Notes under the pieces: generated by a model | Told to the model about the DNA's origin: nothing | Database searches by the model: none | Seen by the model: the letters and a program-made list of their open reading frames with translations, nothing else | From: Stylophora pistillata | Lineage: Eukaryota | DNA: 64,000 bases | Assembly: GCF_002571385.2 (NCBI RefSeq) | Contig: NW_019218148.1 | Location: 199,433-263,432 of the forward strand | Direction of reading: 5' to 3' | Made by a program: the position numbers and the translations under genes | In this document: piece after piece, positions 37,301 through 40,300 of the stretch | Numbering within the stretch: position 1 is the stretch's first letter | How the letters are laid out: each line of letters starts with the position of its first letter

Positions 37301-40300
37301 GGTAAAAAAATTACTTTGTATGCTCTTTTGCTCAACAACAATAAAAAGAAAAAAAAAATCAGTGCCTACAAAACCAAAATCTAACAAGATGTCTCAAATT
37401 AAACATTAAATTTAGTTATTTGTCACAGACATTTAACAGAAAAATACAGAAGTGAAGATGCAAGCATATTTAAGGATTTTTCTGCTCATTCTTTCTATTG
37501 CAGTTTATGAATCTGTGTGATTTTTGCAATCAATTAACACTTTACTCCAAAGATCTCATTTAATTCTCCTTACCGTCTGCCATACCATTCTTATAATGTT
37601 AGTTTGGAGAACTTGGTATTAGATCAAATAATCCTCTGATTGACATTTTTTATTCTGTCTTGGTCACTCATAGAAGTTAAAAAATTAAATTTAATTTTAC
37701 TACTTTTTCTTTAGAAGCTCCAGATGTTTTTCAAGTTCCAACACTAGATAGCTTGCAGCCAAATTTAGACGAATTTATGGAGCATTTTGAAACCCTTACC
37801 GGTAAGCTGTCCTGGCCAAGCCAAGACTAAACATACTATCTCTTTCTTACTGACTATTAGCACGTGAATTTAGAAATATCAATGACCTTAGCATTTAGTG
37901 CAATTTTCAGTTCAGGAATTGCAGTGATGTTGCTCACTTTTCACTCTGAGTGGCCTGGAAAACTCACTCTACTCTCTCAACCAATCAAATTTGTGATTAA
38001 AACCAACACAACGCTGTCACACGCGTTTTTCTTGGACATCCAGTTGTTCGTTTCCGTTTTGAGTCCTGATTGGCTCCTTGTGTTTTTTCCTTTGTTCTAA
38101 TTGGCTATTATGATTTCTTTGGTTTGGTTTTAAGACGCCCAGTCTAAAATCGCTTGATCAGAATTCAGTGCTAATTTTAGGATGCTTTCAATTTTGTAGG
38201 TATGCTGGTGAAACAAGGTGAACATGCAGGAAATCAGCCAAATTATGTTCAACAGAGTGACTACAATCAGTGCCAGGCTGTTGCTCCTCCCCCGCCAAAC
38301 GCCACAGTGTATGTGAATCAAGGAGATCCATATGAGGCAACTGCCCCAGGACAAGATGAGGTTATGGATCATTCCGGAGCATATGAATCTGTCGCACAAG
38401 AAATGTTCCCAACCCAAACAGTGGACAATTCTCAATTGCGTCAGGAGGTTATGCAACCAGATGGACAAGTACTGATGGACATTTCCAGTGCAAATTCCAC
38501 AGTGGACTTCAGTTATAACTATGGAAATGTACTGCAAGGAGGAAGCTTCACCTCACAGCTAGACCAAAGTAGGCATGTGCATGCACAATCACAGAGCGTA
38601 CATGCGCAGAACAAGCAGCAGGTTGTTACATCACCCAGACTAGCTTCGCCTGTAGAACAGCCTCAGTTGCCACCTTACCCAACATCACCACCGCAACATC
38701 ATCAGACTCCGCTGGAGGAAATTCAAATTCAAGCCCAACAGCATCAGTCTCGCGGAAATAATGTTATGTCCCCTACCAACCAGTTTGTTGGTAACGTAGA
38801 TCCTTTTAACACGGCGAGGCAAATGGATGACTCGAACCAACAGAGGAAGGGACGGTTGCCTAGGAATGTATCCGATACACAGTTGTACACGATGGACTTG
38901 TCCCAACTGGGAACATCTTTCCACACAAATTTGTTTCCCTCTATGGAAAGTAATTTACCACCCCAGTTGGAAGCTCCTAATTTAGCGGCACATTTGCAGT
39001 CCATACAGCCACGCACTAGGATCCCTTCCCTACCAACAACCTCTAATCCCAAGCGGCCCCGTCTACCGAGAAACATGTCTGACTCTAAACTGAGCAGTTT
39101 AGCTCGCATGTGCAGAAGTCCGACATCACCTCCATCGCTACCCACAGTGCCTTCGTCGGAGATAGGAAACCAACCGTCGCAGATAGCAAACCAACCGTCG
39201 CAGATAGCAAACCAACCGTCGCATCCAATCGCTAACCCACCACATCCCTCAGGAAGGAAAAAAAGAGGAGGGTTTCCTCGTATCATGTCAGATTCATCTT
39301 TGTTGAGTTTAGGTCAACAGCCGCACCAACGCGCGCCTCCAGCTCCAGCAGCAGCACCAATTACATCGCAGCGCAGACGGAAGATGTCCACTCCAGAACA
39401 TCTTGGAAACACTGTGGCTGCACTCTCATCTCAGTCTCCAACATTCACCAGCACTGCAGATACACCACAGTTAACAGGAAGCCTTACAACAAATGCAAAT
39501 CTTTTAGAACAGTTGTTACTAGCACCTGTGGCTAGTCAAGCCCCAGCTGCTGAATCCTATCAAACAAACAACTCGGTGTTAGGTCAACTCCTCACTCAGC
39601 CATCTCCTTCTAATCCTGCAGTGCCTATGCAAACGAGAGAGACTGGTACCGTGAGTGGTACGCAAGACCCTTCTCTGCTGAATCAGCTTTACCAGTTGAA
39701 ACAAGTGTTACACAAACAAAGCGCCCCAACAGAGCTGGTCAATGCATTGAGTACCTTAAGTAACACAGGAGCGACGCAAGCAACTCAGCACAAACAAGAA
39801 CAGCCACAAGCTGTGCAACATAAAACTGCTCCTATGCAGCCATCACTCCAGATGAAGCCCCAAAATCAAAACGTTATCACTCAAGCCTTACAGTCCCTGT
39901 TGCGAGCACCGCCTAATGTAGCTATTCAACCCTCCACCTCCAGCAAACCAACAACACCAGTTAGTAACTTTACTTCACAATCGCCATTGCAAGCCGCGTT
40001 GATCACGTCAAACAGTGCACCGGTTCCAACTGTCACCATCAAGCACACGCCCCAAAATAAAGTTCCTGTGCCAGCTGTGAATCAAAATGTGTTGCCGCAG
40101 GCAGCAGTTATCTTATCTCCTCAGGGTAATCTGCAAGCTGTCCAAGACACACCGACTGGTCATATGAGTGGTGTACCTGAGGTGCCAACTTCATGTATGC
40201 CGCAGGTGGTGAATGTTGGACATCCCACAGTTCAGGGGCACAGGATTATTTTACCAGCGAATGTAAACCTGAGCACTTTGTCTTTGGCACAGCTAGGGCT

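What the first reader, a model, noticed from the sequence alone, without database searches (positions are those of the whole stretch)
38853..39395. Three CRTC-like AMPK/SIK-14-3-3 phospho-motifs in coral Mondo
Seen: the large exon repeats LPRNVSDTQL (38856), LPRNMSDSKL (39063) and FPRIMSDSSL (39273), spaced ~70 aa apart, plus RTRIPS and RRRKMST. Known: Phi-x-R-x-x-S-x-x-x-Phi is the AMPK-family consensus, and LxRTxSDSAL is the SIK/14-3-3 cytoplasmic-retention site of CRTC coactivators. Inference: this glucose-sensing factor carries a multivalent kinase/14-3-3 switch linking energy or cAMP state to sugar-responsive transcription, possibly relevant to use of symbiont photosynthate.
Basis: partly seen in the sequence, partly recalled or inferred. 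Interest (0 to 1): 0.7.

Follow-up and report, generated by a model that had tools for sequence, protein, structure and literature searches.

The report
Conserved phospho-switch cassette in coral Mondo
The coral version of the sugar-response transcription factor Mondo/ChREBP has three repeated likely kinase target sites and a likely nuclear-import signal, shared with a sea anemone and not seen in the other animals' versions sampled, which suggests an untested on/off switch for entering the nucleus.

Summary
The motifs are real. They lie at the stated coordinates in a transcribed 2.1-kb exon of Stylophora pistillata Mondo/ChREBP. All three serines and their -3 arginines are kept in 10 of 10 homologues, Nematostella included, against 15-77% background identity. 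The strict motif is in 0 of 136 other Mondo proteins, mostly bird ChREBP. The sites fit LxRxxSxxxL. Of five human kinase matrices they score best for AMPK and SIK1. Additions: an invariant NLS-like K[KR]xR abutting site 2, a conserved helix between sites 1 and 2, and a weaker fourth site with +2 Pro. These proteins also lack MCR1 and differ at two proposed G6P-binding spots, so 'glucose-sensing' is assumed. Best reading (0.55): AMPK-family phosphorylation recruits 14-3-3 and masks the import signal. Neither phosphorylation nor binding is shown. RTRIPS is poorly conserved. A symbiosis-specific role is unlikely because Nematostella (non-symbiotic, recalled) has the trio.

The parts
26953..46477 (+). 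Mondo/ChREBP (MLXIP-family bHLH-ZIP) gene, 21 coding exons in isoform X1
   Evidence: P0155 maps exactly in 21 blocks; name
38200..40322 (+). Large central exon, 707 codons, predicted disordered
   Evidence: Splice joints on both sides in RNA runs, one contig covers it whole; mean pLDDT 39.7 from a 6-sequence alignment; no Pfam family at E<=1
38844..38855 (+). Basic patch RKGR before site 1
   Evidence: lost in Nematostella and P0126
38856..38885 (+). Site 1, LPRNVSDTQL (S520, codon 38871-38873)
   Evidence: R and S kept in 10 of 10 homologues; AMPKA1 99.8th, SIK1 99.6th percentile
38955..39005 (+). Conserved helix-forming segment LPPQLEAPNLAAHLQSI, partner unknown
   Evidence: 17 of 17 anthozoan-type rows tested including L010, 0 of 136 other Mondo proteins; helical in the model
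39012..39029 (+). RTRIPS (S572): poorly conserved, probably not part of the cassette
   Evidence: R and S/T both kept in 6 of 10 homologues
39051..39062 (+). NLS-like K[KR]xR (KRPR) directly before site 2
   Evidence: K580 and R583 invariant in 11 of 11; 17 of 17 rows including L010; NLS function inferred
39063..39092 (+). Site 2, LPRNMSDSKL (S589, codon 39078-39080)
   Evidence: 10 of 10; rank 2 of 232 S/T in the protein for both AMPKA1 and SIK1
39156..39218 (+). Three 7-residue (21-nt) repeats in the spacer between sites 2 and 3
   Evidence: Sequence; 21 letters left out in run X6; absent from the homologues
39255..39266 (+). Basic patch RKKR before site 3
   Evidence: a basic patch precedes site 3 in every row, exact letters vary
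39273..39302 (+). Site 3, FPRIMSDSSL (S659, codon 39288-39290)
   Evidence: 10 of 10; duplicated in P0123 and L009
39372..39395 (+). Site 4, RRRKMSTP (S692) with +2 Pro; fits several basophilic kinases
   Evidence: R and S both kept in 7 of 10; >=99.3rd percentile for all five matrices
30603..30632 (+). MCR3 helix RLNNAIWRCW, the phospho-independent 14-3-3 site of ChREBP, retained
   Evidence: Matches 4gnt_B, 9gcp_B and 5f74_B; PMC7414219 passages
37205..37222 (+). MCR6 reads PDTLFT instead of [ST]DTLF[ST]
   Evidence: Pro in 9 of 9 anthozoan-type rows; S/T in 129 of 136 others
42462..43395 (+). bHLH domain, spread over three exons
   Evidence: PF00010 at aa 1079-1133; exon map

Best explanation
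Hexacoral Mondo carries a conserved regulatory cassette in its disordered middle: site 1, a helix, an NLS-like K[KR]xR fused to site 2, site 3 and a weaker site 4. Shown: the sequence, its transcription, its selective conservation and its consensus fit. Inferred: an AMPK-family kinase (AMPK itself fits slightly better than SIK or MARK) phosphorylates the three serines. A 14-3-3 dimer then binds two of them at once and covers the basic import signal next to site 2, holding Mondo:Mlx in the cytoplasm when energy is low. Dephosphorylation frees the signal. This is CRTC/class-IIa-HDAC logic, and it parallels the ChREBP pS196/14-3-3/importin competition with different parts.
For: All three R and S kept in 10 of 10 homologues; motif identity 19-30 of 30 positions against 15-77% background, p 3e-3 to 7e-13 per row. 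The constrained positions are the kinase ones: -3 R 34/34, S 34/34, +4 L 34/34, -5 hydrophobic 34/34 among sites picked by a pattern that requires them, while +3 varies; the position-based check does not depend on that pattern. Same-residue codons differ between copies (0 of 7, 3 of 5, 1 of 7 identical), so likeness is kept at protein level. AMPKA1 99.3-99.9th and SIK1 99.1-99.6th percentile, against PKD1 48-90th and SGK3 80-88th. The CRTC3 site LNRTNpSDSAL lacks +2 Pro yet binds 14-3-3 through -3 Arg (PMC6890249). Two changes go to the canonical +2 Pro: site 2 of P0126 and site 1 of L004/L005. K580 and R583 invariant, 9 and 6 residues before S589. Precedent: ChREBP pS196 recruits 14-3-3 and blocks importin alpha (PMC7489895).
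Against: No phosphorylation, binding or localisation data. The three sites lack +2 Pro, found in six of seven AMPK motifs of CRTCs/HDACs, and -2 Asn matches neither 14-3-3 mode I/II nor the SIK formula. Asp at +1 is in 33 of 34 sites though all five matrices score it 0.29-0.65, so kinase preference does not explain the whole motif. CaMK1A is not excluded (97.0-99.2nd percentile); only 5 of 303 kinases were scored, all human. The protein keeps the MCR3 14-3-3 helix and the MCR4 basic region, so a second import signal may be redundant. Constitutively nuclear ChREBP mutants stay carbohydrate-responsive (PMC8102921), so localisation need not be the main control. L010/L011 keep the helix and K[KR]xR without the trio.
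Confidence: 0.55

Rival explanations
1. The sites are phosphorylated by an AMPK-family kinase but act without 14-3-3 retention, by weakening importin binding directly or by tuning the nearby helix, transactivation or protein turnover.
For: No +2 Pro and Asn at -2. Basic patches precede all three sites. AMPK phosphorylation of rat ChREBP S568 lowers transcriptional activity, with no 14-3-3 role listed (PMC8102921 table).
Against: The SDSxL tail equals the CRTC3 14-3-3 site; changes at +2 go to Pro in two lineages; several spaced sites are typical of dimeric 14-3-3 clients.
Confidence: 0.2
2. The same sites are targets of another basophilic kinase (CaMK1/CaMK4, MAPKAPK2, Chk1/2, RSK), so the input is calcium or stress rather than energy charge.
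For: CAMK1A scores 97.0-99.2nd percentile on the three Stylophora sites; 298 of 303 matrices were not scored in full.
Against: Among sites that already have R at -3 the trio ranks 90-99th for AMPKA1 and 84-92nd for SIK1, but 47-79th for CAMK1A and 4-49th for PKD1. Pro at -4 (31 of 34 sites) scores 1.19 for AMPKA1 and 0.57 for CAMK1A.
Confidence: 0.12
3. LPRNxSDSxL is a repeated docking motif for a folded partner and is not phospho-regulated; the kinase-consensus fit is incidental.
For: -4 Pro 31/34, -2 Asn 30/34 and +1 Asp 33/34 are more fixed than kinase preference requires.
Against: Strong fit to AMPK/SIK matrices; P0126 site 2 drops Asp but keeps L, R, S, L and gains +2 Pro.
Confidence: 0.09
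4. The cassette is an adaptation for handling symbiont photosynthate.
For: Present in Stylophora, Montipora and Oculina. It could be used in symbiosis even though older than it.
Against: The full trio, helix, K[KR]xR and site 4 are in Nematostella vectensis, which has no algal symbionts (recalled; the passages read do not state it outright).
Confidence: 0.04

Closest known systems
Mondo family: ChREBP (MLXIPL), MondoA (MLXIP), invertebrate Mondo
   Same: MCR2-4, MCR5-like segment, bHLH-ZIP and C-terminal region; the MCR3 14-3-3 helix is retained.
   Different: Trio and helix found in 0 of 136 other Mondo proteins. No MCR1, Pro in MCR6, lysine of MondoA GKL139-141 replaced in 8 of 8 hexacoral rows. 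ChREBP S140 aligns to Pro (alignment, my numbering).
CRTC1-3 region II (CRTC2 S171, CRTC3 S162) and class IIa HDAC sites
   Same: LxRxxSxxxL with an SDSxL tail and no +2 Pro, as in CRTC3 LNRTNpSDSAL; several sites in a disordered region.
   Different: Unrelated protein: no Pfam family on the exon at E<=1. Three near-identical sites rather than one gatekeeper plus two variant sites. Asn at -2 and Pro at -4. The cAMP/SIK link is untested.
ChREBP pS196 / 14-3-3 / importin-alpha competition
   Same: A phosphosite beside a basic NLS that could switch importin for 14-3-3 (PMC7489895).
   Different: That site is a PKA site next to MCR4; the coral cassette lies about 350-500 residues downstream and has an AMPK-family consensus.

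Membership tests
Mondo/ChREBP family | bHLH-ZIP plus conserved C-terminal region | tested here: met
   (58-66% identity to bilaterian Mondo over aa 1060-1275)
Mondo/ChREBP family | MCR2, MCR3, MCR4 | tested here: met
   E=1.7e-33 to ChREBP 81-190
Mondo/ChREBP family | MCR1 HSGxFM | tested here: not met
   0 of 9 anthozoan-type N-termini, 129 of 136 others; no upstream match in six frames of the window. It is an orthologue but lacks the canonical MCR1-6 set.
Mondo/ChREBP family | MCR6 [ST]DTLF[ST] | tested here: not met
   PDTLFT in 9 of 9; DTLFT core kept; definition from PMC3323566
Mondo/ChREBP family | Glucose/G6P-responsive transactivation with Mlx | not testable with these tools
   needs a reporter assay
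AMPK-family substrate motif | LxRxxSxxxL | tested here: met
   3 of 3 sites, F at -5 in site 3; matrix scores
AMPK-family substrate motif | SIK/CRTC form with S/T at -2 (LXBS/TXSXXXL) | tested here: not met
   -2 is N 30, I 2, V 2 of 34
AMPK-family substrate motif | Actual phosphorylation | tested here: inconclusive
   No Mondo peptide found in the Aiptasia phosphopeptide table, which also has no CRTC or CREB entry
14-3-3 client site | Mode I/II consensus with +2 Pro | tested here: not met
   Sites 1-3 have S/T at +2; only site 4 has +2 Pro
14-3-3 client site | Non-canonical R(-3)...pSDSxL type as in CRTC3 S162 | tested here: met
   sequence match only
14-3-3 client site | Phospho-dependent binding | not testable with these tools
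Classical monopartite NLS | Basic residues at P2, P3, P5 (K-K/R-x-K/R) | tested here: met
   KRPR/KRAR/KKAR in 17 of 17 rows; pocket preference from PMC7489895. The pattern is common: 122 of 136 other Mondo proteins have one somewhere, so only its fixed position is informative.
CRTC family | Sequence homology (TORC domains) | tested here: not met
   no Pfam hit on the exon; only HLH-type and one weak GATA hit on the whole protein

The most novel reading that the evidence does not exclude
Hexacoral Mondo is gated mainly by kinase-read energy state rather than by a sugar phosphate. It lacks or has altered all three elements proposed for the glucose response (MCR1, MCR6 serine, GKL lysine) and instead has a multivalent AMPK/14-3-3 cassette built onto an older helix-plus-NLS module. 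Direct G6P sensing would then be a bilaterian feature or a cnidarian loss, and corals would read photosynthate supply through AMPK.
Probability: 0.2. Interest if true: 0.72.

Novelty: new variant of a known kind. Interest (0 to 1): 0.48.

Why it matters
How Mondo/ChREBP senses sugar is still debated. A natural orthologue that lacks MCR1 and the proposed G6P contacts but has a conserved kinase cassette is a ready test: if it still answers to glucose, those elements are dispensable; if it answers only to AMPK, the family has two wiring schemes. It also gives four defined serines and an import signal to follow in Nematostella and Aiptasia feeding, starvation and bleaching experiments. The mechanism type (phospho/14-3-3/NLS masking) is well known, and everything functional here is predicted from sequence.

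Tried and rejected
No own genome held. Pfam on the exon: nothing. ESM Atlas on aa 500-705: no usable hit. Earlier scan findings: nothing by sequence or words. A PxIxIT-like calcineurin-docking word at aa 905 (consensus recalled): rejected, since 4,666 of 20,000 shuffles and 102 of 136 other Mondo proteins have one, and it is missing from the four most distant rows. RTRIPS as a fourth site: rejected. MDHSG at 38358-38378 as a relocated MCR1: rejected, HSG is not kept in P0123, P0124 or P0125. Recent tandem duplication as the cause of the repeat: rejected, copies are 16-18 of 30 nt identical. A profile of the helix against 136 other Mondo proteins: best E=1.1. Aiptasia phosphoproteome supplements: NMS, MLX, DSQL, CRTC and CREB 0 hits; 6 of 6 DSSL rows and 13 of 24 NVS rows viewed belong to other proteins; the Aiptasia orthologue sequence was not in hand, so this is uninformative. 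L010/L011 could not be named (4 exact look-ups failed). The C-terminal tree does not place L010 (branch 6.57). No complex prediction was run.

Full report
Observation. The three 10-residue motifs are at 38856, 39063 and 39273 in one frame of an exon spanning 38200-40322. The region is 100% identical to P0001, named Carbohydrate-responsive element-binding protein of Stylophora pistillata. The longest isoform maps to the window in 21 exons, 26953-46477. RNA runs show + strand transcription and GT-AG joints at both exon ends; one contig (X6) spans the exon whole, and no internal splice is listed (13 further joints were not shown; depth in raw runs was low). Three generic matches occur in 28 of 100,000 exon shuffles. 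The AlphaFold model is low-confidence throughout (mean pLDDT 39.7, 6-sequence alignment), which fits disorder but does not prove it; short helices are predicted in and around the motifs.

Conservation. Eleven distinct anthozoan-type proteins were aligned. Named ones are Stylophora, Oculina, Montipora and Nematostella; seven are unnamed. All three serines and -3 arginines are kept in 10 of 10 homologues. Motif identity is 19-30 of 30 positions against 15-77% in 322 background positions, and among the five most distant rows the four best 10-residue windows are the three sites and one helix. Selection caveat: P0121-P0126 and L001-L011 were found with the motif region. Motif-independent searches gave 5 of 5 (C-terminus) and 6 of 6 (N-terminus) anthozoan-type proteins with the trio, queries included. 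Of 11 metagenome loci, 9 have the trio (L008 split by a frameshift) and 2 near-identical ones (L010, L011) do not. Among 136 other Mondo proteins (mostly bird ChREBP, so not independent; only 120 of 998 hits were listed; some unnamed), 0 have the strict motif and 11 have one or two generic matches at scattered places. No named octocoral, medusozoan, placozoan or sponge sequence was retrieved, so the taxonomic limits are open.

(a) A K[KR]xR word ends one residue before site 2; K580 and R583 are invariant. Basic patches also precede sites 1 and 3. (b) A segment LPPQLEAPNLAAHLQSI between sites 1 and 2 is in 17 of 17 rows tested and 0 of 136 others. (c) L010, a divergent full-length Mondo, keeps this segment and PKRARV but has no trio; by eye it has one basophilic serine (YRKSKSETNI) after the basic word. 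It groups with the hexacoral clade in the N-terminal tree (98/95) on a long branch and is unplaced in the C-terminal tree. This suggests, weakly, that helix plus NLS is older than the trio. (d) RRRKMS is a fourth site with +2 Pro, kept in 7 of 10; RTRIPS is kept in 6 of 10 and only in the closer rows.

Which kinase. The sites fit LXRXXSXXXL (PMC6890249) but not the S/T at -2 of LXBS/TXSXXXL (PMC5325614). I scored them with 5 of the 303 human matrices in Supplementary Table 2 of PMC9876800, against 9,489 distinct S/T 10-mers from the other Mondo proteins. Percentiles for sites 1-3: AMPKA1 99.8/99.9/99.3, SIK1 99.6/99.6/99.1, CAMK1A 98.6/99.2/97.0, PKD1 89.8/86.8/47.6, SGK3 80.7/87.5/79.6. The background is not a phosphoproteome and the matrices are human, so this ranks candidates only. 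Two sites outside the cassette (positions 38 and 191) score as high or higher. Asp at +1 is disfavoured by all five matrices yet present in 33 of 34 sites, which points to a second constraint such as a binding partner.

14-3-3. Sites 1-3 lack the mode I/II +2 Pro. The CRTC3 site LNRTNpSDSAL also lacks it and needs the -3 Arg for binding; the coral consensus shares L, R, S, D, S and L with it. Where +2 changes notably it becomes Pro: site 2 of P0126 and site 1 of L004/L005. ChREBP already binds 14-3-3 through the MCR3 helix without phosphorylation (PMC7414219), a helix the coral keeps, and through pS196, which blocks importin alpha (PMC7489895). So the best model is AMPK-family phosphorylation, 14-3-3 binding and masking of the site-2 import signal (0.55). 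All of these steps are inferred.

Is it glucose-sensing? MCR1 is needed for the glucose response of ChREBP and MondoA (PMC3323566). HSGxF is in 0 of 9 anthozoan-type N-termini and 129 of 136 others; MCR6 has Pro before DTLF in 9 of 9 against S/T in 129 of 136; the lysine of MondoA GKL139-141 is replaced in 8 of 8 hexacoral rows, kept in L010 and in 125 of 136 others. Against reading too much into this: MCR6 as a G6P site is a prediction, S287A had no significant effect in MondoA (PMC6962712), and N-terminal gene models may be incomplete. It supports the novel case at about 0.2.

Symbiosis. Nematostella has the whole cassette. Its lack of algal symbionts is recalled knowledge. The Aiptasia phosphoproteome tables hold no Mondo peptide but also no CRTC or CREB entry, so they say nothing either way.

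Literature. Searches listed no paper on these motifs or on coral Mondo regulation; (ChREBP, coral, Symbiodiniaceae) found 0 papers. Searches were for background. The library lacks most subscription papers. Seen: PMC3323566 passages and section 17; passages only of PMC5325614, PMC6890249, PMC8102921, PMC7489895, PMC7414219, PMC6962712, PMC7003098 and PMC11267454; PMC6972648 abstract and supplement searches; PMC9876800 supplement parts only (two of its supplements were too large to read). The PMC3323566 supplements, which include Nematostella in an alignment, were not seen.

Verdict. A real, strongly conserved, lineage-restricted cassette in a known transcription factor, probably working by a known mechanism, with no functional proof. 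New variant of a known kind; interest 0.48.

Noticed in passing
window 26949-26984 and 28693-28913: Isoform X2 (P0156) starts in another frame of the first exon and skips the exon carrying MCR2, the export-signal region. It may be an export-deficient form, loosely like ChREBP-beta (analogy recalled). Not checked against reads.
   Followed up: partly
L010:13-3570 and L011:22-3528: Divergent, unnamed, intron-less full-length Mondo that keeps the helix segment and PKRARV, lacks MCR1 and the trio, and has Pro in MCR6.
   Followed up: partly
window 38358-38378: EVMDHSG: the E and M are invariant in 11 of 11 rows, a further small conserved island in the disordered exon; function unknown.
   Followed up: partly
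window 35667-36575 (exon junction, aa 185-195 of P0001): Basic run followed by T/S residues after MCR4 (RKRKRTISS); T191 scores in the top five for four of five kinase matrices, roughly where ChREBP S196 lies. Similar runs occur in Oculina, Montipora and Nematostella.
   Followed up: partly
window 39156-39218: 21-nt tandem repeat, polymorphic in copy number (one unit missing in run X6), setting the site 2-3 spacing.
   Followed up: yes
window 30700-32800: Intron holds AT-rich, decayed reading frames that look by eye like a reverse-transcriptase (LINE) remnant, with an inverted duplicate near 31300-31420 / 31700-31830.
   Followed up: no
window 41950-42230: Intronic repeat that attracts very many RNA reads with loose ends on both strands, likely a common interspersed element.
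   Followed up: no
window 44940-45450: Long inverted repeat with tRNA-like segments in the intron before the second-last exon, MITE- or SINE-like by eye.
   Followed up: no
window 39576-39599: LGQLL and two further LxxLL words in the exon; the nuclear-receptor-box type is widespread in Mondo (129 of 136 others have an LxxLL).
   Followed up: partly
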